A DNA stretch of 50,631 bases from Nanobdellota archaeon (GTDB taxonomy: Archaea; Nanobdellota; Nanobdellia; Pacearchaeales; GW2011-AR1), in the NCBI GenBank assembly GCA_030648285.1, contig JAUSIC010000010.1, forward strand, positions 1 through 50,631. The letters are read 5' to 3'. Shown piece after piece: positions 79 through 48,965 of the stretch. Position 1 is the first letter of the stretch. Every line of letters starts with the position of its first letter. A program made the position numbers and the translations under genes. The notes under the pieces were generated by a model. That model made no database searches. It saw only the letters and a list, made by a program, of their open reading frames with translations, and had not been told where the DNA came from.

Positions 79-159
79 GATTTAGAAATATCCTATGACT
101 TTTTATAATTTTATGTAGAAAAAAGAAGATGTTTGAAATTGATAGATAAATAGGAAAGG

Positions 160-258
160 TTAATGTAATAATCGAAGCCTGTTGTAGATGTTTAAAGTGA
201 TAATAATCGTTTAAGTTGAAAAAGAGGTGATAAAAATATAAATCTTAATTATCTTTTA
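160..258 (+). repeat. Intergenic repeat family R, copy R1 (subfamily A)
   Basis: ttaatgtaataatcgaagcctgttgtagatgtttaaag... matches the 5' consensus TTAATnnARAATTGAAGYCTTTTGTAGATGTTTTAAA shared with 6 other intergenic copies. The distal taattatctttt block is shared with R7 and R8. Confidence 0.6.
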
Positions 259-263
259 TTTTG

Positions 264-692
264 ATGACTATAACAAGATGTGACTTAAATGATGCTTCAA
301 TATTAGAAGGATTATTTAGTGTTTTATACAAACCAGAATTAAAATGGTCAAGAGAGTTAATTGAACAAGAAATTAGAAGTGGGAGGAAAATATATTTTAT
401 TGCTTTAGAGGAGGATGTTTTAGGAGCATTTGGTATAGAACTTGAAGAAAGAGAAGCTAAATTTGGTCCTATCAGCATTAAGCCCCAATATCAAAAAAGA
501 GGTGTTGGTTCACAATTAATTCGATTTGCAGAAAGCCTCGCAAGAGGAAGAGGGTTAGTTAGGATTTGGTGTCATAGTCTTGAAAGATATCACACAGAGG
601 GATTTTATGAATATCATGGTTGGAAAATGGAGAAATTTATAAAAGATTTTTGGGATGGCCAAAACTGTTATTTGTTTTCTAAAGAATTATAA
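264..692 (+). CDS. GNAT family N-acetyltransferase
   Basis: Acetyl-CoA binding motif QYQKRGVGSQLIRFAESLARGRG (Q/RxxGxG/A) and size ~140 aa. The ATG at 264 follows the TTG at 261 used in the ORF track. Confidence 0.85.
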   Translation: MTITRCDLNDASILEGLFSVLYKPELKWSRELIEQEIRSGRKIYFIALEEDVLGAFGIELEEREAKFGPISIKPQYQKRGVGSQLIRFAESLARGRGLVRIWCHSLERYHTEGFYEYHGWKMEKFIKDFWDGQNCYLFSKEL

Positions 693-9427: not shown

Positions 9428-9532
9428 ATTGAATTTTATGCTTTTTTATTTTTAAAGGTTTAGAATGGGAAAAAATAGTCAATGCGCCTACCTGACGCAC
9501 TCACTCAAGCATATATGGATTAGCCTCGTGAA

Positions 9533-9639
9533 TGCGCCAGTCGAGAATTGAACTCGACCCTAAACCTTGTTCCGTTGGACGAACGCCCAAGCGTGGTCAT
9601 TCGTGGGAAGGTTTCATTCTGCCGATAAACTACTGGCGC
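9533..9639 (-). tRNA. tRNA-Gly (anticodon CCC) with a 36-nt intron at the canonical 37/38 position (intron 9568-9603)
   Basis: Reverse strand reads GCGCCAG-TA-GTTT-ATCGGCA-GAAT-G-AAACC-TTCCCA[CGAATG...GGAACA]A-GGTTT-AGGG-TCGAG-TTCAATT-CTCGA-CTGGCGC-A. TTCC pairs with GGAA (4 bp) between 3-nt bulges CAC and CAA, which is BHB geometry. It is one of the few GC-rich islands in an AT-rich genome. Confidence 0.8.
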
Positions 9640-9712
9640 ATTATTCCTTTAATATAATAAATCATTTAAAGATTTTCGTTAGTTTTTTATACATTCTCTT
9701 TCTATGTTTTAC

Positions 9713-12214: not shown

Positions 12215-12263
12215 GAAATTTTCCCCAAAATACAAAATTGGTTAGGAAGTATTTTGCATAATG
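12214..12263 (+). promoter_or_regulatory. L-motif 5' leader, copy A
   Basis: ggaaattttccccaaaatacaaaattggttaggaagtattttgcataATG. Arms aatacaaaat/attttgcata enclose a GGAAGT loop, and the ATG directly follows. Confidence 0.6.
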
Positions 12264-15314: not shown

Positions 15315-15368
15315 TATGCAAAATACCTCCATGCCAATTTTGTATTTGTGCTGAACGTTAGTTCTGCC
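15312..15368 (-). promoter_or_regulatory. L-motif 5' leader, copy B
   Basis: Reverse strand reads ggcagaactaacgttcagcacaaatacaaaattggcatggaggtattttgcataATG, 51/57 identical to copy D. TATA ctttttatac lies 25 nt upstream. Confidence 0.7.
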
Positions 15369-17930: not shown

Positions 17931-17935
17931 ATAAA

Positions 17936-18080
17936 TAGCCTCGCTTCTGCTCGCAACCCCACTCACATTGGATTACATTGCAGGTTCGTGAAGTTGTTCG
18001 CTCGAGATTGATCTAGTAATAATATAAAAACGACATTATTGACTTTAAATTGATTACAAAAGACTTCAATTATTCTATTA
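17936..18080 (-). repeat. Intergenic repeat family R, copy R6 (subfamily B)
   Basis: The reverse strand starts at the stop codon of 18078-18371: taatagaataattgaagtcttttgtaatcaatttaaag...gtcgtttttatattatta...ctcgagcgaacaacttcacgaacc...taatccaatgtgagtgggg. Confidence 0.6.
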
Positions 18081-18371
18081 ATCTTTTTGCTTCTTAGCAC
18101 CTATTTGCACAAGAGTGTTATAAAATTGCTGTAATGCTTCTTTTGCGATATCTTGGCAGGGTATGATTTTTACTTTTTCCCTTTTAGGTTCATACATTAA
18201 ATAATAGGCGATATTTGATGAGCCATGTAAAAGTTCATCTATTGTAGGTTCTGTTTCAACATCTCTTGGAAGAATTCTTTTTCTTTGGTGAAGATATCTA
18301 TCTGAGTTCAATTCATGCCCTAAAAATGCTTCTAGAAGTCTAATATTATCTAAACTCTCTCTGGCTATCAT
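18078..18371 (-). CDS. hypothetical protein (GC-richer orphan)
   Basis: 97-aa ORF with no family recognised. Confidence 0.5.
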   Translation of the reverse strand: MIARESLDNIRLLEAFLGHELNSDRYLHQRKRILPRDVETEPTIDELLHGSSNIAYYLMYEPKREKVKIIPCQDIAKEALQQFYNTLVQIGAKKQKD

Positions 18372-18445
18372 TAATCTTATAATTTTATAGAGTTTATATT
18401 TTTTATTATAATCAGGTTTATAAATTTGAATTCTTTTTTTAAAAT

Positions 18446-19537
18446 ATGTCTAAATACACTAAAATTGAACTTGAAGATTTGATGAAAGAGCTGGAAAGTC
18501 ATAAGGGGAAACATACAGAATTAATTACTGTTTACATTTCTTCTGGATATGACCCCAATTCTGTTCAAAAACAGCTTGAAGGAGAAAAATCTACCGCAAA
18601 GAACATTAAATCAACTACGACAAGAAATAATGTAACAGATGCTCTTGATAAAATAATAAGATATCTTAAACCCTTGAAAAAAGTTCCTGATAATGGACTG
18701 GCTTTATTTTGTGGAAACATAAGTCCTGTTGAAGGACAGCAAGATTTGCAACTATGGGATGTTGAACCCCCTCTTGCATTGAGAACAAGATTATACAGAT
18801 GTGACAAAGATTTTGTTCTTGAACCTCTTAGAGAGATGCTTGAAGTTGATGAGGTTTTTGGCTTGCTAGTTATGGATAGAAAAGAAGCAGCAATAGGCAT
18901 GCTTGAAGGAAAAAGAATTGTTTTATTGCAGAAAATGACTTCTGGTATTCCAGGCAAAGTCAAGGCAGGAGGACAAAGCGCTGCTCGTTTTAGTCGTGTT
19001 ACAGAGGGATTAACAAAAGAATTTTACAAGAGAATTGCAGAAGAAATGAAAACTATTTTTTTTGAAATGCCTAAACTAAAAGGAATCTTAGTTGGTGGAC
19101 CTGTTCCTACAAAAGATGAATTTATTGATGGAGAATATTTAACAAGAAAACTTCTTGACAAAGTTCTTGGAAGAGTTGATATTGGAGATAGTGATGAATC
19201 CGGATTAAAAGAACTTGTTGCAAGAGCAGGAGATATCTTGGCAAGCCAGGAAATAACTTATGAAAAAAATGTTCTTGCGAAATTTTTTGAAACTCTTGGA
19301 GAAAGAAGAGATTTAGCAACTCTTAAAGAAAAGGATACTATGAAGGCTTTGGAGATGGGTGCTGTTGGAACTTTGTTTTTATCAAGAGAAGCTGACAAAG
19401 CAATTTCCAATAAGTTAAAAGAAATGGCAGAAAACACAGGAGCTAAAGTGGAAATAATTTCAATAGAGACAGAAGAGGGACAGCAGTTCAATAATCTTGG
19501 CGGAATTGGTGCTATTTTGAGGTTTAGGACAGGGTAA
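18446..19537 (+). CDS. prf1: peptide chain release factor aRF1
   Basis: NIKS motif (TAKNIKSTTTRNN) and GGQ motif (KAGGQSAARF). Confidence 0.95.
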   Translation: MSKYTKIELEDLMKELESHKGKHTELITVYISSGYDPNSVQKQLEGEKSTAKNIKSTTTRNNVTDALDKIIRYLKPLKKVPDNGLALFCGNISPVEGQQDLQLWDVEPPLALRTRLYRCDKDFVLEPLREMLEVDEVFGLLVMDRKEAAIGMLEGKRIVLLQKMTSGIPGKVKAGGQSAARFSRVTEGLTKEFYKRIAEEMKTIFFEMPKLKGILVGGPVPTKDEFIDGEYLTRKLLDKVLGRVDIGDSDESGLKELVARAGDILASQEITYEKNVLAKFFETLGERRDLATLKEKDTMKALEMGAVGTLFLSREADKAISNKLKEMAENTGAKVEIISIETEEGQQFNNLGGIGAILRFRTG

Positions 19538-19567
19538 TTTTGGATTTAATTTGGAAATGAGGAATAA

Positions 19568-19690
19568 TTAATGTAAAAATTGAAATCTTTTGTAGTCGTT
19601 TTAAACTTAACATCGTCGTTTTTGATTATTATAATATTTATTTTGTGAGTGAAACGAGCAACTAATTATTAGAGTAATTTTATAAATCTC
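19568..19690 (+). repeat. Intergenic repeat family R, copy R2 (subfamily B)
   Basis: ttaatgtaaaaattgaaatcttttgtagtcgttttaaacttaacatcgtcgtttttgattattata...gtgagtgaaacgagcaactaat...aattttataaa; long match to R4. Confidence 0.65.
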
Positions 19691-21501: not shown

Positions 21502-21601
21502 AGAAAATTTTTCATAAATACAAAATTGGCAAAGAGGTATTTTGCATAATGAACAAACAAGAAATTTGCCACAAATACAAAATGGGAGATTTTGCATGAT
21601 G
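21502..21601 (+). promoter_or_regulatory. Tandem L-motif leaders (copies C1 and C2) with a 16-codon uORF
   Basis: C1 is agaaaatttttcataaatacaaaattggcaaagaggtattttgcataATG. C2 is gaaatttgccacaaatacaaaatgggagattttgcATGATG. The C1 ATG (21549) opens MNKQEICHKYKMGDFA*, whose TGA (21597-21599) overlaps the ATGATG of the main ORF. Confidence 0.65.
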
Positions 21602-23030: not shown

Positions 23031-23063
23031 AATGTCTGCTAAAGCAGATTGATTAAGGAAATT

Positions 23064-23166
23064 TTAATGAGAGAACTGAATTTGTTGTAGATATTTAAGT
23101 TGAACAACGTCGTTTCTGGATTATCATATAGTCATATTGCGAACGAAGTGAACAACTATTTTTTTA
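23064..23166 (+). repeat. Intergenic repeat family R, copy R3 (subfamily B)
   Basis: ttaatgagagaactgaatttgttgtagatatttaagttgaacaacgtcgtttctggattatcatat...gcgaacgaagtgaacaac. Confidence 0.6.
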
Positions 23167-23234: not shown

Positions 23235-23291
23235 GACAGAACTAAAGTTCAGCACAAATACAAAATTGGTTGAGAGGTATTTTGCATAATG
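23235..23291 (+). promoter_or_regulatory. L-motif 5' leader, copy D
   Basis: gacagaactaaagttcagcacaaatacaaaattggttgagaggtattttgcataATG. TATA ggtttataaatt lies 23 nt upstream. Confidence 0.7.
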
Positions 23292-23601: not shown

Positions 23602-26600
23602 ATGAGGGGCGAAATGAAAAAATTGAGGTTAGGAGTTATATTATTATTTGGATTATTTCTTTTTTTAATCGGTTTTGTATCTTTTATCAATCGTGTTAAT
23701 ATTACTTCTTTTGTAATAGATGTTCCTACAAATATTACTACAGAATCTCAGCAGCATTCCTGGCTTGGAAATAAAACAATTCAATCTGCAGAGCTAGATT
23801 CTACTCACAACTTAATTTATTTCGTGGGAGGTAATGGATTATTTGGGTTTTATAATATTACATCAAATACTACAACAGATTTAAGTGGAACAGATAACGA
23901 AAATTGGATTGGAAATCAAGAAATTAGAAGCTTGGCTGTTGATTCTACAAATGATTTAGTTTATCTTTTGGGGTATAAATATACTTGTGGTAGTGTACTA
24001 GGAAACAATTTATTCGGAGTGTACAATAGGACATCAAATATAACTGAGAATTTGAATACAACAGATAATGGAGACTGGTTAGGTCCAAATCCGCAAATTG
24101 GAGGTATTGTTGTTGATTCTTCCACTCATCTTGCTTACTTTAGAGGGATTAGTGGTTTTTTTGGGGTTTATAATAGAACTTCCAATACTTCAGAGAATTT
24201 GAATGTAACACTTAATGGATTTACTGGATCATTATGCGAGATTATTATTAATCAGAATAATAATCTTATTTATTTAGGGGGGGGTAATGGAGCATTTGGA
24301 GCATATAATAGAACTTCTAATGTTACAGAGAACCTGACTATGACTTCTTCTTTCCCAAATTTTGGTGCTCGTAATATATTATCTTTTTGCATTGATTCTA
24401 GTAATAATCTTATTTATTTAACAGGTTCGGGGGCAGGAGTTTCTACTTTATTTTCAGTTTATAATGTATCAAAAAATGTAACTGAAAACTTAAACATGAC
24501 GGGAGATGTAATCCCTTCTGCTCAAGGGTCAATGAATGATTGTGTTTTTGATTCGAATAATAAATTGGTTTATATAATAGGTGCTTGGTCTGCATTTGGA
24601 GTTTATAATAGAACTTCAAATACAACAGAAAATCTAAACAAGACAGATACAGGAAATTGGATCGGGGCAATTACAAATAATCTAGTTTTTGATTCTAATA
24701 GAAGTTTAATTTATTTATCGAGTAATACCAATTCATATGAATTCGGAGTTTATAATAGAACATCAAATGTAACAGAAAATTTGAATGATAGTGATACTGG
24801 AGACTGGCTTGGGACTAATGATGTTAATGAAGTAATATTTAATTCAAATAACAAACTTCTTTATTTTGTTGGAACAAACGGAGTATTTGGTGCTTATAAT
24901 AGGACATTAAATAAATCAGATGATTTAAACCTTCCAAATGATTGGTTTAGATTTAATGCTGTTAAAACAATAGTTTTTAATTCCTTAAATAACTTAATTT
25001 ATTTAGGAGGAGTTAATGGCAGATTTGGAACTTATAATTATAGTTTAAATGAAAAACAAGATTTGAGAAATACAGATCCTTCAGGTTGCTTTTATTCTAA
25101 AACAATTTCAGAAATGACTCATGATTCTACTAATAATCTTATTTATCTTGCCGGCAGCAGTTTTTTATGTTCTTTTAATATAAGTTCCAATATTACAGAA
25201 GATTTAAGACATGTAGATGGTACTGATTTGATAGTCGATGTAGGGATTTCTTCTTTAACTTTTGATACCCTAAATAGTCTTGTTTATTACAATCGTGGAA
25301 CCACTAGTTCTGGTTTTTTTTCTTATAATGTATCTGCGAATACGACAGAAAATTTAGCCCAGACAGATTCTGGGGGATGGCTCACAACTGTTACAAATGA
25401 CATGACTTTTGACAGCACAAACAACCTTATCTATCTTGTTGGAAATACAGGACAATTTGGAGTCTATAATGTTTCTAAGAATGAAACTGAGAACTTAAAT
25501 AAGACAGATAGTGATGATTGGATTAAAACTACAAATCTTCTTGGTGTTACTTATGATTCTAGTAATAGACTTATTTATTTAGATGGAGCAAATGGTGCTT
25601 TTGGTGTTTATAACAGAGATTCAAATCAGACAGAAAATTTAAATTTGACTGATACTGGAAATTGGGTTAACAATTTAGCATTGAATGAGATAACTTTTGA
25701 TAATAATAGCAATCTTGTTTATTTTGTTGGATATTTTGGAGCATTCGGAGTTTATAATAGAACATCTAATGTAACTGAAGATTTGAGAGGAACAGATTCT
25801 GGAGATTGGATTGGTAATACAACATTAAACATAGTATCTTATAGTTCAAGAAATAATCTTGTTTATATTGGTGGAGAAGTAGGTTTATTCGGAGTTTATA
25901 ATAGAACATCTAATTCAACAACAGAAGCAGCATCAGTAGTGGGAGAAGTTACTTCTCCCAGAGGAAGTTCTTCACCTCCATCTCAAACAACAATAATACC
26001 CTCAATAACTCTAGGAACACCAGCTATTATTGAAATAACAAGTTCATCCTCAAGTATAAGAACAATTAAAATAAATGCGAAGAATAATATGTCCAATGTT
26101 ACTCTAACACTTTCTAGAACAAATATTTCTGATGCTGATTTTCAAGTTATTGCAGGAGGAAGAAGAGGAGAATCTTATGAAGCTTATAACATAAATTTTA
26201 CAGGAAACAATTCAGATATTGCGAATGTAACAATAGGCTTTAGAGTAAACAAAACATGGTTGATTAAAACAGGATTTACAACTTCTAATATTGCTCTTTA
26301 TAGAGAACTTACAAATTCCACGAGATGGAAAACTCTTGCAACTACTTTTTTGTCTGAAGATTTAGTTTATTATTACTTTTCAGCTGTTTCTCCTGGATTT
26401 TCAAAATTCTTAATTTTTATAGGAGAAGACGAATGCATTCCTGCTGAAAAAAGATGCGTTGAAAACGAAGTTCAATTCTGTTTGGGAAACAAGAAATGGT
26501 TAGTAAGTGAAGTTTGCGATTACAAATGTGTTAATGGAGCTTGTGTTGAAAAAGGATTGCAAGTAAATCTTAATCCTTTAGTTGTTTATCCTATAATTGG

Positions 26601-26715
26601 AATTGTTGTTGTTGGAATTTTGATTTCTTTTTTAGTGCAGAGAATGCCTAAGAGGAAGAAGGATATGACTACACATTCTATCTCTAATTATTTTAGAAGA
26701 ATTGGAAAGAGATAA
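23602..26715 (+). CDS. giant repeat-rich, sequon-rich surface protein (YVTN-like β-propeller repeats, PGF-pre-PGF-like domain, Cys-rich module, C-terminal TM anchor)
   Basis: N-terminal signal/TM (LRLGVILLFGLFLFLIGFV). About 15 units of ~45 aa: DSxNNLIYLxGxNGxFGVYNRTSNxTENLNxTDxGxW. Then a ...SPGFSKFLIF block, CIPAEKRCVENEVQFCLGNKKWLVSEVCDYKCVNGAC, the TM PIIGIVVVGILISFLV and a basic tail. Confidence 0.9.
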   Translation: MRGEMKKLRLGVILLFGLFLFLIGFVSFINRVNITSFVIDVPTNITTESQQHSWLGNKTIQSAELDSTHNLIYFVGGNGLFGFYNITSNTTTDLSGTDNENWIGNQEIRSLAVDSTNDLVYLLGYKYTCGSVLGNNLFGVYNRTSNITENLNTTDNGDWLGPNPQIGGIVVDSSTHLAYFRGISGFFGVYNRTSNTSENLNVTLNGFTGSLCEIIINQNNNLIYLGGGNGAFGAYNRTSNVTENLTMTSSFPNFGARNILSFCIDSSNNLIYLTGSGAGVSTLFSVYNVSKNVTENLNMTGDVIPSAQGSMNDCVFDSNNKLVYIIGAWSAFGVYNRTSNTTENLNKTDTGNWIGAITNNLVFDSNRSLIYLSSNTNSYEFGVYNRTSNVTENLNDSDTGDWLGTNDVNEVIFNSNNKLLYFVGTNGVFGAYNRTLNKSDDLNLPNDWFRFNAVKTIVFNSLNNLIYLGGVNGRFGTYNYSLNEKQDLRNTDPSGCFYSKTISEMTHDSTNNLIYLAGSSFLCSFNISSNITEDLRHVDGTDLIVDVGISSLTFDTLNSLVYYNRGTTSSGFFSYNVSANTTENLAQTDSGGWLTTVTNDMTFDSTNNLIYLVGNTGQFGVYNVSKNETENLNKTDSDDWIKTTNLLGVTYDSSNRLIYLDGANGAFGVYNRDSNQTENLNLTDTGNWVNNLALNEITFDNNSNLVYFVGYFGAFGVYNRTSNVTEDLRGTDSGDWIGNTTLNIVSYSSRNNLVYIGGEVGLFGVYNRTSNSTTEAASVVGEVTSPRGSSSPPSQTTIIPSITLGTPAIIEITSSSSSIRTIKINAKNNMSNVTLTLSRTNISDADFQVIAGGRRGESYEAYNINFTGNNSDIANVTIGFRVNKTWLIKTGFTTSNIALYRELTNSTRWKTLATTFLSEDLVYYYFSAVSPGFSKFLIFIGEDECIPAEKRCVENEVQFCLGNKKWLVSEVCDYKCVNGACVEKGLQVNLNPLVVYPIIGIVVVGILISFLVQRMPKRKKDMTTHSISNYFRRIGKR

Positions 26716-28000: not shown

Positions 28001-28060
28001 GACAGAAATAGGAAATTTCAGCACAAATACAAAATCGGCATGGAGGTATTTTGCATAATG
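28001..28060 (+). promoter_or_regulatory. L-motif 5' leader, copy E
   Basis: gacagaaataggaaatttcagcacaaatacaaaatcggcatggaggtattttgcataATG. TATA aataatataaac lies 23 nt upstream. Confidence 0.7.
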
Positions 28061-32504: not shown

Positions 32505-32642
32505 GATGATTGCTTCGAAATCGACTTCGTCAGATTTCTTCACTTAGGAAAAGATAATTTGTAATACCTTAACTCTTGGTTAATTATAAACGATTAATCT
32601 TATTTAAAACATCTACAAAAGGCTTCAATTCTCATATTAAAA
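32505..32642 (-). repeat. Intergenic repeat family R, copy R7 (subfamily A) with distal GAC-GAA-GUC hairpin
   Basis: Reverse strand reads ttaatatgagaattgaagccttttgtagatgttttaaataagattaatcgttta...ccaagagttaaggtattacaaattatctttt...gaaatc-t-gac-gaa-gtc-gatttc (hairpin 32517-32538). Confidence 0.65.
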
Positions 32643-32680
32643 TTTATTATTAATCTTTGAGCAATTTATTGCGAAACTAT

Positions 32681-35904: not shown

Positions 35905-36282
35905 TTAACTGCAACGTGAACCTTCGGGTGTAACACCACATCCATTAGGACAAGTTACAATTTGACCTACACAAGTAGGAGTTGTTGTTACAAGATGCTG
36001 ATTACAATAGTATTCTACTAATATTTTTGTATTCAGACATTTATCTTCTCCTATGAAAGTTATTTTTCCTCTACCTCCTGCATATTGAAGGCATCTTCCT
36101 ACTAAATCAGCAACTTTTCCTCCATCAGAATCTGAACATCTTGGTCCATTTGGGGCTACAACATTCCCGGTTAAGTTTGCAGAAATTATGTAGACTGTTC
36201 CAGTCAGCAACAAGACAATTGCAATTACGTAGACAAAAACTTCTAAAGAAAATTTCTTTGCCATCTCTTTTTTAATTAACAA
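35905..36282 (-). CDS. small secreted or membrane-anchored Cys-rich protein
   Basis: N-terminal TM (VFVYVIAIVLLLTGTV), then CSDSDGG...C...C...C pattern with 9 Cys. Alternative ATG start at 36264. Confidence 0.55.
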   Translation of the reverse strand: MLIKKEMAKKFSLEVFVYVIAIVLLLTGTVYIISANLTGNVVAPNGPRCSDSDGGKVADLVGRCLQYAGGRGKITFIGEDKCLNTKILVEYYCNQHLVTTTPTCVGQIVTCPNGCGVTPEGSRCS

Positions 36283-36371
36283 CCTCCTTTCATAACAATA
36301 TTAAGTATAATATTTTATTCTTTAAAAAGTATTCTGAAACATAGAAATATTTAAATAGTATATCTTTTTAT

Positions 36372-36392
36372 GTGTATACATAAGGTGTATAC
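36372..36392 (+). promoter_or_regulatory. direct repeat of a palindrome-containing 8-mer (GTGTATAC x2), candidate operator
   Basis: gtgtatac at 36372-36379 and 36385-36392; each contains the GTATAC palindrome. Located between the TATA-like atatttaaatagtata and the structured leader. Confidence 0.4.
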
Positions 36393-36515
36393 CTCATCTC
36401 TCTCACTTGGCTGAAGACGAGTGATTGAGTGAAATCATTGAGATTTCATCTCTCTTTAACACCCAGTTATGGCTCTGAAATATGAGCCTTAACTCACCAG
36501 TAAAGAGATAAAACA
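36393..36515 (+). promoter_or_regulatory. long GC-enriched structured leader or small RNA upstream of the AbrB-like gene
   Basis: Outer stem tctcttta (36451-36458) / taaagaga (36501-36508). 6+6 nt internal loop. 11-position inner stem agttaTggctc / gagccTtaact (36465-36475 / 36484-36494; 10 bp plus one T-T mismatch). Loop tgaaatat. ACA at 36513-36515. Confidence 0.4.
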
Positions 36516-36521
36516 AAAAAT

Positions 36522-40487: not shown

Positions 40488-40605
40488 GTATTGCACTCAC
40501 TTCGCTCGTGAATTGATGATATTGATAATCTAGAAACGATATTTTAAGTTGAACTTTGAGTATCTAGTTAACATAATATTAATTGAGCGATAGCGAACAA
40601 ATTAT
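40488..40605 (-). repeat. Intergenic repeat family R, copy R5 (subfamily B, 5' module diverged)
   Basis: Reverse strand reads ...caaagttcaacttaaaatatcgtttctagattatcaatatcatcaattcacgagcgaagtgagtgcaatac. Confidence 0.55.
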
Positions 40606-40611
40606 ATCTCC

Positions 40612-40872
40612 TTATTCTTTCTCTAAAAATTCAAAAATTTCTTTTTGTTTATGACTGTTTAATCCAACATGAATTTCTCCTGTAGAGGGTTTGATATTTA
40701 AAAATCCCTTATTTATCAACTCTTTTATTGCTTTTTTATGTTCTTTTGTTCCTCTTAAATGATCTGGAAGGCATTTTTGAAGATTTTTTATTTCTGTATG
40801 GCGTCCACCCCAGATATTCAAATTGACTAATTTTCTAAGAATTCTTTTCATTATAGCAATCTGCAAATCCAT
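40612..40872 (-). CDS. small hypothetical protein (possible winged-helix)
   Basis: 86-aa ORF, divergent from the wHTH gene at 40966. Confidence 0.5.
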   Translation of the reverse strand: MDLQIAIMKRILRKLVNLNIWGGRHTEIKNLQKCLPDHLRGTKEHKKAIKELINKGFLNIKPSTGEIHVGLNSHKQKEIFEFLEKE

Positions 40873-41262: not shown

Positions 41263-41289
41263 ATCTTTAGTGCTTTTTAGGAAGGATTG

Positions 41290-41417
41290 ATTAATTTTTC
41301 CAGACTTCGTCATGGAAAAATTTTAGAAGATAATTAATGTGTAAATAACCTTTGATGCTTGGTTCAACCTAATAATTAGTTTAAAACATCGACAACAGAC
41401 TTCAATTCTACTATTAA
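41290..41417 (-). repeat. Intergenic repeat family R, copy R8 (subfamily A) with distal GAC-GAA-GUC hairpin
   Basis: Reverse strand reads ttaatagtagaattgaagtctgttgtcgatgttttaaac...ccaagcatcaaaggttatttacacattaattatctt...tttttcca-t-gac-gaa-gtc-tggaaaaa (hairpin 41295-41320). Confidence 0.65.
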
Positions 41418-41427
41418 GATTTCCTCT

Positions 41428-41446
41428 AAAAATTCTGCTTTAGCAG
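41428..41446 (-). terminator. hairpin plus T5 tract after ORF 41452-41871
   Basis: Reverse strand reads ctgc-taaa-gcag followed by aattttt, beginning 5 nt after the stop codon. Confidence 0.45.
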
Positions 41447-41451
41447 ACAAA

Positions 41452-42154: not shown

Positions 42155-42235
42155 ATTTTTCCCTTTTTAAAGATAGTAGATAATATATAATAAAAAATAT
42201 ATAATATTTCTTGTACAATTAAAAATTAAATAAAA

Positions 42236-42703
42236 TTATATCTCCTTATTCTTCAATCTTCTCATCTTTGGGATAAAATTGCTGATTTTATTTTCAGAGG
42301 CTTTTCCACAGCCTAAAACTTCATCCTTGTATTTCATTACTAAAAATCCTTTTTGTTCTGTTTGAATGTTTAAATCTCTGCCAGACATCCATTCTTTTGA
42401 TTGCTGTTGGTTTAATTCAAAAATGTTCTTGCTTATTTGTTCTTTTAGAATTTGTGTGGCTTCTATGCTTAATTTTGGAAAATCATTCATTATTCTTGCA
42501 AAATAAACTCCTATTCTTTCAATTGGAACTTCTGATTCAATTATTCTTATTTCATTCTCTTTTAATTTTCCAGAGAAAAAGAAAATCCTGTCGTTTCCGA
42601 ATTTAATTAACATGCCAGGAATTTCTTTTACTCCAAACTGCTTATTTAGTTTTCTTTCTATTTCTCTCTTTTCATTTTTTGAAAGAATTTTTATAAAAGT
42701 CAT
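42236..42703 (-). CDS. PUA-like RNA-binding domain protein (resembles the C-terminal domain of RsmF/NSUN methyltransferases)
   Basis: ...KGFLVMKYKDEVLGCGKASENKISNFIPKMRRL, the typical end of the RsmF/NSUN C-terminal domain. 4-nt overlap with the upstream gene. Confidence 0.5.
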   Translation of the reverse strand: MTFIKILSKNEKREIERKLNKQFGVKEIPGMLIKFGNDRIFFFSGKLKENEIRIIESEVPIERIGVYFARIMNDFPKLSIEATQILKEQISKNIFELNQQQSKEWMSGRDLNIQTEQKGFLVMKYKDEVLGCGKASENKISNFIPKMRRLKNKEI

Positions 42704-48758: not shown

Positions 48759-48789
48759 GAGGGAATTGAGGAAATGATAAATGAGCAAA

Positions 48790-48832
48790 TAGTAAATTTG
48801 CCACAAATATAAAATAGGAAATTTTACATATA
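48790..48832 (+). promoter_or_regulatory. decayed L-motif copy F (no start codon)
   Basis: atagtaaatttgccacaaatataaaataggaaattttacatatag aligns to copy C2 (gaaatttgccacaaatacaaaatgggagattttgcatgatg). The ATG is lost. Confidence 0.5.
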
Positions 48833-48965
48833 GAATAATTGAAGCCTTTTGTAAATGTTGAGCAGTTGAACAAAATCGTTTTAAACTTAACCAGAGTATC
48901 TAGGTTATCATTATTATCCATTTTGCGAGTTTACGAGCAACTAATAAACAATAATTTTATAAAAA
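48830..48965 (+). repeat. Intergenic repeat family R, copy R4 (carries blocks of both subfamilies)
   Basis: atagaataattgaagccttttgtaaatgttg...aaaatcgttttaaacttaaccagag...tatctaggttatcattattatcc...gcgagtttacgagcaactaat...aattttataaaa. Confidence 0.65.

What the first reader, a model, noticed from the sequence alone, without database searches (positions are those of the whole stretch)
19568..19690. Dispersed ~100-150-nt intergenic repeat family (R) placed just after stop codons; 8 copies in 50 kb
Copies: 160-258 (+), 17936-18080 (-), 19568-19690 (+), 23064-23166 (+), 32505-32642 (-), 40488-40605 (-), 41290-41417 (-), 48830-48965 (+). The shared 5' module is TTAATnnARAATTGAAGYCTTTTGTAGATGTTTTAAA. 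Subfamily B (R2-R6) continues with (A)TCGTTTYTnGATTATYAnAT ... CGAGC/GAAC ... (G)TGAGTG/CGAGCAAC. Subfamily A (R1, R7, R8) continues with AATCGTTTA..CCAAG..AAGGT..ATTATCTT. Seven of eight copies lie 0-72 nt downstream of a stop codon and point the same way as that gene; R6 starts at the stop codon itself. R2 and R4 also end in a shared AATTTTATAAA TATA box ~25-35 nt before the next ATG. The elements therefore look like composite 3'-end plus next-promoter modules, or a MITE-like or small-RNA family that targets gene ends. There are no terminal inverted repeats, no regular spacing and no coding capacity.
Basis: seen in the sequence. Interest (0 to 1): 0.65.

Follow-up and report, generated by a model that had tools for sequence, protein, structure and literature searches.

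The report
Mosaic mobile-type repeat in DPANN archaeon
The repeats are real: a non-coding, roughly 110-175-nt patchwork element that is present or absent between the tightly packed genes of one lineage of tiny uncultivated (Pacearchaeota-type) archaea, and that looks like a new selfish or mobile repeat rather than a built-in gene-end/promoter signal.

Summary
The family is real. Seven of the eight listed copies share a 5' module, AATTGAAGYCTKTTGTAGATGTTTAA (profile E 1e-13 to 4e-7; none expected by chance). R6 lacks it and is an inverted pair of the family's 3' hairpin module. The host is a Pacearchaeota/Woesearchaeota-type archaeon. The same module occurs on 40 sediment and groundwater metagenome contigs. 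It was not found in any GTDB species representative, nor in about 480 kb of syntenic DNA from 30 relatives. Their spacers at the same gene junctions are only 36-58 nt (stop codon, TATA box, ATG). A relative about 85% identical has an empty R3 site. There the 132-nt R3 is bounded by an 8-bp direct repeat. Three close relatives carry three different R states at one junction. Outside the window the orientation relative to genes is mixed (8 sense, 13 antisense). The "TATA box" is the neighbouring gene's own promoter. No frame is conserved as an ORF, no Rfam family matches, and the 5' module has no conserved fold. The 3' hairpin covaries strongly and is capped by C-GNA-G / GCGAAGC triloops. Best reading: a lineage-specific, non-autonomous mosaic repeat (MITE/REP-BIME-like) tolerated only between stop codon and next promoter. 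The mobilising enzyme and any transcription are unknown.

The parts
151..258 (+). R1. Leader TAGGAAAGGTTAATGTAAT (151-169), 5' module (170-197), SD-like module AAAAAGAGGTGATAAAAAT (219-237). No terminal hairpin. Lies in a divergent spacer.
   Evidence: nhmmer E 9e-14; coordinates; context and the orthologous copy in L030
17931..18085 (-). R2. Leader and 5' module (18043-18085). The stop codon of orf97 lies inside it. Long B-type hairpin with a nested CGAGC..TTCACGA..TAATCCA..GTGAGTG..GCGAG module (17931-18006). Lies between convergent genes.
   Evidence: nhmmer E 3e-8; b3 profile E 1.5e-3; orf97+R2 is absent from the ValRS-eRF1 spacer of relatives
19542..19673 (+). R3, the focal copy (132 nt). 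5' module 19578-19606. B-type hairpin TTTTGTGAGTGAAACGAGCAAC 19641-19662.
   Evidence: nhmmer E 7e-8; b3 profile E 3e-10; boundaries from the empty site in run X2
19534..19541 (.). Left copy of the 8-bp direct repeat GTAATTTT flanking R3. It includes the eRF1 stop codon TAA.
   Evidence: sequence; the empty site ...AGGACAGG|GTAATTTTATAAATC in X2 has a single copy
19674..19681 (.). Right copy of GTAATTTT. It runs into the native ScpB TATA box (TTTTATAAATC), which is not part of R.
   Evidence: the same TATA is at empty sites in L074/L075
23031..23169 (+). R4. Left inverted hairpin GTCTGCTAAAGCAGA (23034-23048), 5' module (23073-23105), B-type hairpin + CAACTATTTTTTT (23136-23165). The right boundary is uncertain (could extend to about 23203).
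   Evidence: nhmmer E 4e-7; b3 profile E 1.4e-8; 40-nt empty spacer in L042/L049/L048
32505..32680 (-). R5. Left hairpin directly after the stop codon (32655-32680), 5' module (32602-32630), A-type covarying hairpin GAAATC-TGACGAAGTC-GATTTC (32508-32548).
   Evidence: nhmmer E 2e-13; hairpin covariation; coordinates
40488..40601 (-). R6. Near-palindromic pair of B-type 3' modules (left arm 40558-40601, right arm 40488-40540). No 5' module.
   Evidence: b3 profile hits on both strands; its left arm is orthologous to the left hairpin of the R copy in L023
41284..41448 (-). R7. Left hairpin GTCTGCTAAAGCAGA+T5 (41428-41448), 5' module (41379-41407), A-type hairpin TTTTTCCA-TGACGAAGTC-TGGAAAAA (41284-41324). 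Lies inside a 1.6-kb strain-specific block.
   Evidence: nhmmer E 4e-13
48830..48950 (+). R8. 5' module (48837-48871), GAGTATCTAG module, B-type hairpin TTTTGCGAGTTTACGAGCAAC (48921-48945). A degenerate copy of the D5 leader repeat (48781-48829) lies directly before it.
   Evidence: nhmmer E 5e-12; b3 profile E 4e-8

Best explanation
R is a lineage-specific, non-coding, non-autonomous interspersed repeat of a Pacearchaeota-type (DPANN) archaeon. It is built as a mosaic of short modules:
- an optional inverted hairpin at the left end;
- a leader, T(A/G)(A/G)GGAAAnnTTAATR;
- a 5' module conserved in sequence but not in structure, AATTGAAGYCTKTTGTAGATGTTTAAGTTGAAC;
- semi-conserved body modules;
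- a 3' hairpin, either long with a covarying stem (A-type) or short of the GCGAAGC kind (B-type), often followed by CAACTATTTTT.

What is shown. Copies are gained, lost and exchanged at the DNA level on the time-scale that separates genomes 85-90% identical.

What is inferred. Copies survive almost only in the few bases between a stop codon and the next gene's TATA box, because spacers in this genome are otherwise 30-50 nt of essential promoter. That makes them look as if they target gene ends. Spread is by a trans-acting enzyme encoded elsewhere in the genome. This enzyme would recognise the invariant 5' module and the hairpin, which has the C-GNA-G / GCGNAGC form known to be exceptionally stable in single-stranded DNA. 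That points to either a hairpin-binding HUH/Y1-type enzyme (REP/RAYT- or IS200/IS605-like) or, if the 8-bp repeat at R3 is a true target-site duplication, a DDE transposase. Homologous recombination between copies then shuffles modules and neighbouring genes. Side effects on transcription (hairpin plus T-run, SD-like pieces) are possible but secondary.
For: The family is real and non-random.

Distribution. There are 40 metagenome contigs with an exact 23-nt module. There is none in 185,579 GTDB species representatives, none in viral contigs, and no similarity to plasmids or phages.

Empty syntenic sites. Thirty relatives keep the gene order ValRS-eRF1-ScpB-GT2-p237-HTH-RpoL but hold 0 copies in about 480 kb. 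Their spacers at these junctions are 36-58 nt.

R3 empty site. A contig of run X2, about 85% identical, joins the end of eRF1 directly to 19674. This leaves one copy of GTAATTTT, which flanks R3 on both sides in the window.

Variation among close relatives. L073 has an R3 orthologue while L074 and L075 are empty. At the p155-M24 junction three relatives 85-90% identical carry three different R states: sense A-type, antisense B-type, and a palindromic B-type plus a 1.6-kb block.

Other features. Orientation relative to genes is mixed, 8 sense and 13 antisense. There are tandem and nested copies (L028; R2, L005, L040). No frame is conserved as an ORF. No Rfam family matches. RNAalifold predicts no structure for the 5' module.

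The A-type hairpin. 95.7% of cells are paired, all 11 pairs show compensatory changes, and 0 of 500 shuffles reach this. The apical triloops are mostly C-GAA-G and the B-type core is GCGAAGC or GCGTAGC. This is the 'mini-hairpin DNA' motif GCGNAGC (PMC13037366, found).
Against: No transposase, integrase or HUH gene lies in the 50-kb window. None was seen among the families listed for 148 ORFs on R-bearing contigs, but those lists are truncated.

Most copies have no terminal inverted repeat. Only 3 of 48 are detected by profile, about 13 by eye.

A family-wide test found no excess of flanking direct repeats over mismatched flank pairs. The 8-bp repeat at R3 could therefore equally mark a microhomology deletion in the relative.

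The best-conserved part is internal and asymmetric, which is unusual for a MITE. It could instead reflect a host function.

In the window itself, all copies in co-directional spacers are in the sense orientation.

Gene content differs between these relatives at many places without R: 3 of 4 differences between the window and L030. Turnover next to R is therefore not specific to R.
Confidence: 0.55

Rival explanations
1. R is a cis-acting RNA module of gene 3' ends (3'-UTR terminator, stabiliser or processing signal). It was spread by duplication and is kept because the hairpin (+ T-run) ends or protects transcripts. The hairpin would work on either strand, so both orientations would serve a gene end.
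For: In the window, 7 of 8 copies begin 0-72 nt after a stop codon. All copies in co-directional spacers are sense.

In many copies a hairpin abuts a stop codon directly, in either orientation: the left hairpin in R4/R5/R7 and the 3' hairpin in antisense L039.

The hairpin stem covaries, with 5 G-T against 2 A-C mismatches in the sense strand.

CAACTATTTTT follows about a third of B-type hairpins. A hairpin of the same kind plus GACTATTTTTT follows an intron-bearing tRNA gene at 9470-9532.
Against: The same genes in relatives do without it, in 36-58-nt spacers.

Several features are not explained by a terminator role: the 33-nt 5' module, which is the most conserved part and has no predicted structure; R1 in a divergent spacer; and the tandem copies in L028.

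Most copies lack a run of >=5 T. Whole-copy folding energies are no better than shuffles.

No RNA data are available.
Confidence: 0.2
2. R copies are independent small-RNA genes: a multi-copy sRNA family with a conserved 5' 'seed', a variable body and a terminator hairpin, each with its own promoter.
For: The architecture is a conserved 5' block, then a variable middle, then a covarying terminal hairpin (+/- T-run).

Either orientation relative to neighbours is allowed.

A/T-rich TATA-like boxes are often seen 20-30 nt upstream of ATTGAAG (read). The purine-rich GGAAAGG followed by TTAAT(A/G) could act as BRE/TATA.
Against: No Rfam match.

The upstream A/T-rich boxes are not at a fixed distance, and in several cases they are the neighbour's promoter.

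If TTAAT.. were the TATA box, the invariant AATTGAAGTC would lie between TATA and the start site, where conservation is not expected.

R6 lacks the 5' block. The family is absent from related genomes that would need the same regulation.

There is no expression evidence.
Confidence: 0.12
3. R is a site-specific recombination site at the end of mobile single-gene cassettes (functionally like an integron attC site folded from single-stranded DNA). This would explain why it abuts stop codons and sits next to strain-variable genes.
For: orf97 ends inside R2, and the pair orf97+R2 is an insertion relative to relatives.

Different genes follow the orthologous R1 copy in the window and in L030. Homology between them breaks just after the 5' module.

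Gene order upstream of ScpB is variable around R3.

The hairpins are of a type stable in ssDNA. R6 is an imperfect inverted repeat around a variable centre. GTTGAAC fits the GTTRRRY core.
Against: Most R copies follow essential housekeeping genes whose order is conserved (eRF1, FEN1, the topoisomerase neighbour).

The elements occur in both orientations.

GTTGAAC is about 45 nt inside the element, not at its 3' boundary.

No tyrosine recombinase was seen.

Gene-content differences are just as frequent at junctions without R.

The 1.6-kb block is bounded by its own 21-nt direct repeat, not by R.
Confidence: 0.05
4. The similarities are only what AT-rich archaeal spacers give by chance or by shared promoter and terminator signals.
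For: The genome is about 30% G+C. Short A/T-rich matches between flanks are common.
Against: There were 0 chance matches in shuffles against 4 observed. Profile E-values go down to 1e-17. Exact 23-nt matches occur on 40 independent contigs. The hairpin covaries.
Confidence: 0.01

Closest known systems
Prokaryotic MITEs (e.g. Sulfolobus SM1-SM4/SMN1 elements, Neisseria Correia elements; recalled from general knowledge, reviewed in PMC10969869)
   Same: Small (about 110-175 nt), non-coding and multi-copy. Confined to intergenic DNA. Present or absent between close relatives. Found in either orientation. Carries sequences that could affect neighbouring transcription. One copy (R3) is flanked by an 8-bp direct repeat.
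   Different: Most copies have no terminal inverted repeats. The most conserved part is an internal, asymmetric 33-nt block. No parent IS or transposase with matching ends was found. No family-wide target-site duplication could be shown.
REP sequences / BIMEs of enterobacteria and pseudomonads, mobilised by RAYT (Y1 HUH) transposases
   Same: Extragenic imperfect palindromes that occur singly or as inverted pairs. They are combined with other short motifs into mosaics, lie mostly after gene 3' ends, and have compensatory stem changes. The hairpins could fold in single-stranded DNA.
   Different: The host is archaeal. There is no GTAG-type tetranucleotide at the hairpin foot. An additional long, non-palindromic conserved module is present. 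No RAYT gene was detected. The elements are three to five times longer than a REP.
IS200/IS605-derived palindrome-associated elements (PATEs)
   Same: No classical terminal inverted repeats, (sub)terminal hairpins, asymmetric left and right ends, and known occurrence in archaea.
   Different: Where both hairpins exist they are inverted relative to each other, not in the same orientation. Most copies have only one. No conserved tetra- or pentanucleotide target was seen at the left junction. No TnpA or TnpB lies nearby.
Integron attC sites
   Same: Sit directly after the stop codon of a gene. Imperfect inverted repeats flank a variable centre. The hairpins are of a type stable in ssDNA. Strain-variable genes lie next to some copies.
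   Different: No arrays and no integrase. Both orientations occur. Most copies follow conserved housekeeping genes. The GTTRRRY-like heptamer is not at the element boundary.

Membership tests
MITE | Short non-coding element in many dispersed copies | tested here: met
   8 copies in 50 kb and 57 profile hits in window plus loci; no conserved ORF
MITE | Terminal inverted repeats | tested here: not met
   An inverted copy of the 3' hairpin module at the left end is detected in 3 of 48 copies by profile, and in about 13 by eye. R3, R8, R1 and R2 have none.
MITE | Target-site duplication of fixed length | tested here: inconclusive
   R3 is flanked by 8-bp GTAATTTT, and the empty site in X2 has one copy. 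The family-wide flank comparison shows no excess over mismatched pairs.
MITE | Insertion polymorphism between related genomes | tested here: met
MITE | Autonomous parent element with the same ends and a transposase | tested here: inconclusive
   None in the window or in the visible family lists for 148 ORFs on R-bearing contigs. Complete genomes were not available.
REP/BIME | Extragenic imperfect palindrome with compensatory stem variation, single or in inverted pairs | tested here: met
   A-type hairpin: 11 of 11 pairs with compensatory changes. R6 and the left+right hairpins form inverted pairs.
REP/BIME | Conserved GTAG/CTAC-type tetranucleotide at the foot of the palindrome | tested here: not met
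   The feet of the hairpins are TTGC/GCAA, CTGC/GCAG, GAAATC/GATTTC and so on. GTAG occurs only inside the 5' module.
REP/BIME | Cognate RAYT (Y1 HUH transposase) gene in the genome | not testable with these tools
   Only 50 kb of the genome and short contigs of relatives are available. No Y1_Tnp hit appears.
IS200/IS605-type PATE | Subterminal hairpins at both ends in the same orientation; insertion 3' of a fixed short target; no duplication | tested here: not met
   Left hairpins, where present, are the reverse complement of the right ones. The left junctions share no fixed tetra- or pentanucleotide.
Integron attC | R''-L''...L'-R' inverted sites with GTTRRRY at the 3' boundary, cassette arrays, IntI integrase | tested here: not met
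   GTTGAAC lies about 45 nt inside the element. There are no arrays. No integrase appears.
Known structured RNA families (Rfam 15) | Covariance-model match at or near the gathering score | tested here: not met
   No match on any R copy at gathering threshold or at E <= 5
Intrinsic-terminator-like module (hairpin + oligo-T) | Stable hairpin directly followed by >=5 T on the transcribed strand, in the sense orientation after genes | tested here: inconclusive
   The hairpin is present in nearly all copies. A run of >=5 T follows only about 7 of 20 B-type copies and no A-type copy. Orientation is mixed. No transcript data.

The most novel reading that the evidence does not exclude
The invariant 5' module plus the C-GNA-G/GCGAAGC hairpin could be the recognition site of a so far undescribed archaeal machinery acting on single-stranded DNA (a REP/RAYT-like or attC/integrase-like system in DPANN archaea). 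Such a system would insert, invert and exchange R modules directly behind stop codons. By doing so it would move or swap adjacent single genes such as orf97, the GNAT gene or the Cys-rich protein gene, giving a gene-cassette shuffling system in genome-reduced symbiotic archaea.
Probability: 0.08. Interest if true: 0.85.

Novelty: new variant of a known kind. Interest (0 to 1): 0.45.

Why it matters
DPANN archaea are regarded as streamlined genomes with very short spacers and few mobile elements. This lineage has about 2% of a 50-kb stretch occupied by one mosaic repeat family, plus a second, uORF-bearing leader repeat. Both turn over between genomes 85-90% identical, and the neighbouring gene content also varies. 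Three things follow:
- The family is a ready marker for strain-level genome dynamics in uncultivated Pacearchaeota.
- It is a likely cause of assembly breaks in their MAGs. The Logan contigs of the source sample end near repeat copies, and depth rises there.
- It is a candidate for a new kind of archaeal hairpin-dependent mobile or regulatory element.

For annotation it also matters that the apparent 'terminator + promoter' design is an illusion. It arises because the insertions sit next to native promoters.

Tried and rejected
- Known RNA families. Rfam at gathering threshold and at E <= 5 found nothing on R.
- Whole-copy folding. Energies are not different from shuffles. RNAalifold on 12 B-type copies predicts no pairs, so a globally structured RNA was rejected.
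- Protein or peptide coding. In all six frames only 0-5 of 48 copies lack a stop codon. The frequent ATG-TAA after the SD-like GGAAAGG is not conserved, because many copies have ATA.
- CRISPR repeat, Cas12a handle or omega-RNA resemblance (ATTGAAG, TGTTGTAGAT). This was rejected by inspection. There is no complementary stem, no array and no adjacent nuclease.
- C/D-box reading of ATTGATGATAA. This string is the foot of the inverted left hairpin module or a cluster of stop codons, and no D box lies at the right distance.
- Viral, plasmid or phage origin. No matches.
- GTDB scan with the module. No matches.
- RNA-seq evidence. No RNA run holds the locus.
- Family-wide target-site duplication test. 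Not informative in this AT-rich DNA.
- Search for transposase or integrase in the window and on R-bearing contigs. None seen.
- Read laying over R5-R8. No further empty sites found.

Full report
**Host and setting.** The window is about 30% G+C. It encodes archaeal housekeeping proteins: eRF1, CDC48, PolB, FEN1, TBP, DNA ligase, ScpB, TFS, NAC, an RpoL-like subunit and others. The eRF1 protein finds Pacearchaeota/Woesearchaeota/Nanoarchaeota MAGs at 53-76% identity, so the host is a DPANN archaeon of the Pacearchaeota type. The sequence occurs in a groundwater metagenome. Genes are tightly packed, with typical spacers of 30-50 nt.

R6 has no 5' module. A second profile, built from the B-type 3' module, hits R3, R4, R8 and R2, and hits R6 twice on opposite strands. 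R6 is therefore an inverted pair of 3' modules.

R5 and R7 share a long hairpin domain (A-type). R2, R3, R4, R6 and R8 share a short hairpin of the GCGAAGC / GYGAR...YGARC kind followed by CAACTAT(T)n (B-type). R1 ends in a Shine-Dalgarno-like module, AAAGAGGTGATAA.

R1 is not behind a gene. The gene on its left is on the minus strand and starts near position 78, as its orthologue in L030 shows.

**The wider family.** An exact 23-nt version of the module occurs on 40 metagenome contigs from freshwater sediment and Hainich groundwater. It occurs on no contig of 185,579 GTDB species representatives and on no viral contig. No similarity to plasmids or phages was found.

Reading about 48 non-redundant copies side by side shows a mosaic:
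- an optional left hairpin that is the reverse complement of the 3' hairpin module (for example ATAGTTGCTTCGCAAAATTGATGATAA against TTATCATCAATTTTGCGAAGCAACTAT);
- a leader, T(A/G)(A/G)GGAAAnnTTAATR;
- the invariant block AATTGAAGYCTKTTGTAGATGTTTAA(GTTGAAC);
- body modules (TCGTTTTAGATTA, GAGTATCTAG, an SD-like module in either orientation);
- the A- or B-type hairpin.

Some hairpins carry a nested extra hairpin, CGAGCAAC-TTCACGAG-..TAATCCA..-TGAGTGAG-GTTGCGAG (R2, L005, L040, L012, L014, L038). L028 has two copies in tandem.

**Coding and RNA structure.** No frame is open across the copies. No Rfam family matches. Folding energies of whole copies equal those of shuffles. RNAalifold predicts nothing for the 5' part, so that block is conserved as sequence, not as structure.

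The A-type hairpin is a genuine conserved structure. 95.7% of cells are paired. All 11 pairs show compensatory changes. No shuffle of 500 reaches this, and slid controls collapse to about 30-45% paired. G-T against A-C mismatches (5 against 2) lean only weakly towards folding of the sense strand.

The apex is usually C-GAA-G (also GGA, AAA, AGA). The B-type core is GCGAAGC or GCGTAGC. This is the GCGNAGC 'mini-hairpin DNA' motif, known for extraordinary stability as single-stranded DNA (PMC13037366, found). That the hairpin acts as ssDNA is an inference.

**Presence and absence.** The gene order ValRS-eRF1-ScpB-GT2-p237-HTH-RpoL is conserved in 30 GTDB relatives. None of their roughly 480 kb holds an R copy. 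In the closest ones (L042, L045, L049) the eRF1-ScpB spacer is 36-58 nt and the HTH-RpoL spacer 40 nt. These consist only of stop codon, TATA box (TTTTTAAAC / TTTATAAAT), about 25 nt, and ATG. In the window, R3 and R4 sit between the stop codon and that same TATA box. The 'TATA box at the end of the element' is therefore the neighbour's native promoter.

A 592-nt contig of run X2, about 85% identical, starts with the last 18 nt of eRF1 (ACTGAGATTTAGGACAGG) and continues directly at 19674 (GTAATTTTATAAATC...). This empty site defines R3 as 19542-19673 (132 nt). R3 is flanked by GTAATTTT at 19534-19541 and 19674-19681.

Among ScpB genes 86-92% identical, L073 has an R3 orthologue behind a different upstream gene. 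L074 and L075 have the same promoter without R. L072 uses another promoter.

Contigs 85-90% identical to the window show three different states between the PUA-domain gene (42236-42703) and the M24 peptidase gene:
- L023: a sense A-type copy;
- L002/L039: an antisense B-type copy;
- the window: a 1.6-kb extra block containing R7, followed by R6.

The 1.6-kb block is bounded by a perfect 21-nt direct repeat. The left hairpin of R6 is orthologous to that of L023, but the rest is replaced.

At R1 the relative L030 also has a copy, but a different gene follows it. Gene content also differs between these genomes at junctions without R, so turnover is not specific to R.

**Orientation and position.** After removing duplicates, copies outside the window lie in co-directional spacers 8 times sense and 13 times antisense. 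Five lie in convergent spacers and 2 in divergent ones. The window's all-sense pattern is therefore not a property of the family.

The apparent targeting of stop codons follows from the anatomy of the spacers. The stretch between stop codon and TATA box is the only dispensable DNA.

**Mechanism.** What is shown: DNA-level gain, loss and exchange in one lineage, mosaic structure, both orientations, no coding, a sequence-constrained 33-nt block, and a structure-constrained hairpin. What is inferred: mobilisation in trans by an enzyme that recognises block and hairpin, followed by recombination between copies.

The type of enzyme is open. The 8-bp repeat at R3 fits a DDE transposase. However, a family-wide test shows no excess of flanking repeats, and a microhomology deletion would leave the same picture. 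The ssDNA-stable hairpins and the lack of terminal inverted repeats in most copies fit HUH/Y1 systems better. But the hairpins, when paired, are inverted, and no such gene was seen.

An RNA role cannot be excluded without transcript data, and none are available. It could be a terminator or stabiliser, favoured by hairpin + CAACTATTTTT in about a third of B-type copies and by a similar hairpin + T6 behind an intron-bearing tRNA at 9470-9532. It could also be an sRNA gene family.

**Comparison with known elements.** R works most like a prokaryotic MITE or a REP/BIME mosaic. It fails defining tests of each:
- no general terminal inverted repeats and no demonstrated general target duplication (MITE);
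- no GTAG foot and no RAYT (REP);
- hairpins not co-oriented (IS200/IS605 PATE);
- core heptamer not at the boundary, no arrays, no integrase (attC).

I therefore file it as a new variant of the interspersed non-autonomous repeat kind, not as a member of any named family. No paper on such repeats in Pacearchaeota was found.

**Verdict.** This is a real and previously undescribed repeat family. Interest is moderate. It would be considerably higher if the hairpin-dependent mobilisation or a cassette-shuffling role were demonstrated.

Noticed in passing
window 12230-12259 (+), 21518-21547 (+), 23258-23287 (+), 28027-28056 (+), 15316-15345 (-); degenerate copy 48781-48829: A second repeat family forms the 5' leader of genes. 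It is a conserved 18-22-codon upstream ORF, M(T/A)E(I/L)xxFSTNTK(L/S)xxRYFA*, containing GGAGGT. Its TAA overlaps the main start codon (CATAATG). A relative (run X2) has a plain 30-nt promoter instead at the RpoL-like gene. Contig depth rises about 6-fold at these copies, so the family is numerous and its copies are very similar.
   Followed up: partly
window 40599-40619 and 42233-42253: A perfect 21-nt direct repeat, AAGAATAAGGAGATATAATTT, bounds a 1.6-kb block absent from close relatives L023 and L039. The block holds a 91-aa ORF, a DUF1284 gene, R7, a 98-aa protein (no family match) and an 86-aa ORF. It looks like an integrated element with att-like ends at the 3' end of the PUA-domain gene.
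   Followed up: partly
window ~9533-9641 (-) and 9470-9532 (-): A probable intron-containing tRNA (acceptor GCGCCAG/CTGGCGC, anticodon region CCA), missed by ARAGORN and Rfam. It is followed by a tandem-G.A hairpin with a TAATCCA loop, a second hairpin and GACTATTTTTT. The first hairpin is of the same type as the nested module inside R2, L005 and L040.
   Followed up: partly
L064, L065, L066, L067, L070, L071 (eRF1 genes of GTDB relatives): In six relatives the eRF1 gene is interrupted at residue ~177-180 by 0.37-1.9 kb. This could be an intein, an intron or an insertion. The window's eRF1 is intact.
   Followed up: no
window 17931-18445: orf97 (18078-18371, -; no family match) together with R2 is an insertion relative to the roughly 50-nt ValRS-eRF1 spacer of relatives. 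The orf97 stop codon lies inside R2.
   Followed up: partly
window 264-692 vs L030 4381-5064: The GNAT acetyltransferase gene next to R1 is replaced in a relative about 88% identical by an oppositely oriented gene for a Cys-rich secreted protein. Three further gene-content differences within 7.6 kb lie at junctions without R.
   Followed up: partly
window 36265-36521: A 257-nt divergent spacer with a G+C-richer stretch (CTCATCTCTCTCACTTGGCTGAAGACGAGTGATTGAGTGAAATC...) that may be a non-coding RNA. No Rfam match.
   Followed up: no
window 23602-26715: A 1037-aa protein with no Pfam match, built of about 144-nt (48-aa) repeats rich in N-x-T/S motifs. It is probably a glycosylated surface protein. 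Its C-terminal motif recurs on relatives' contigs upstream of ScpB (L072, L075).
   Followed up: no
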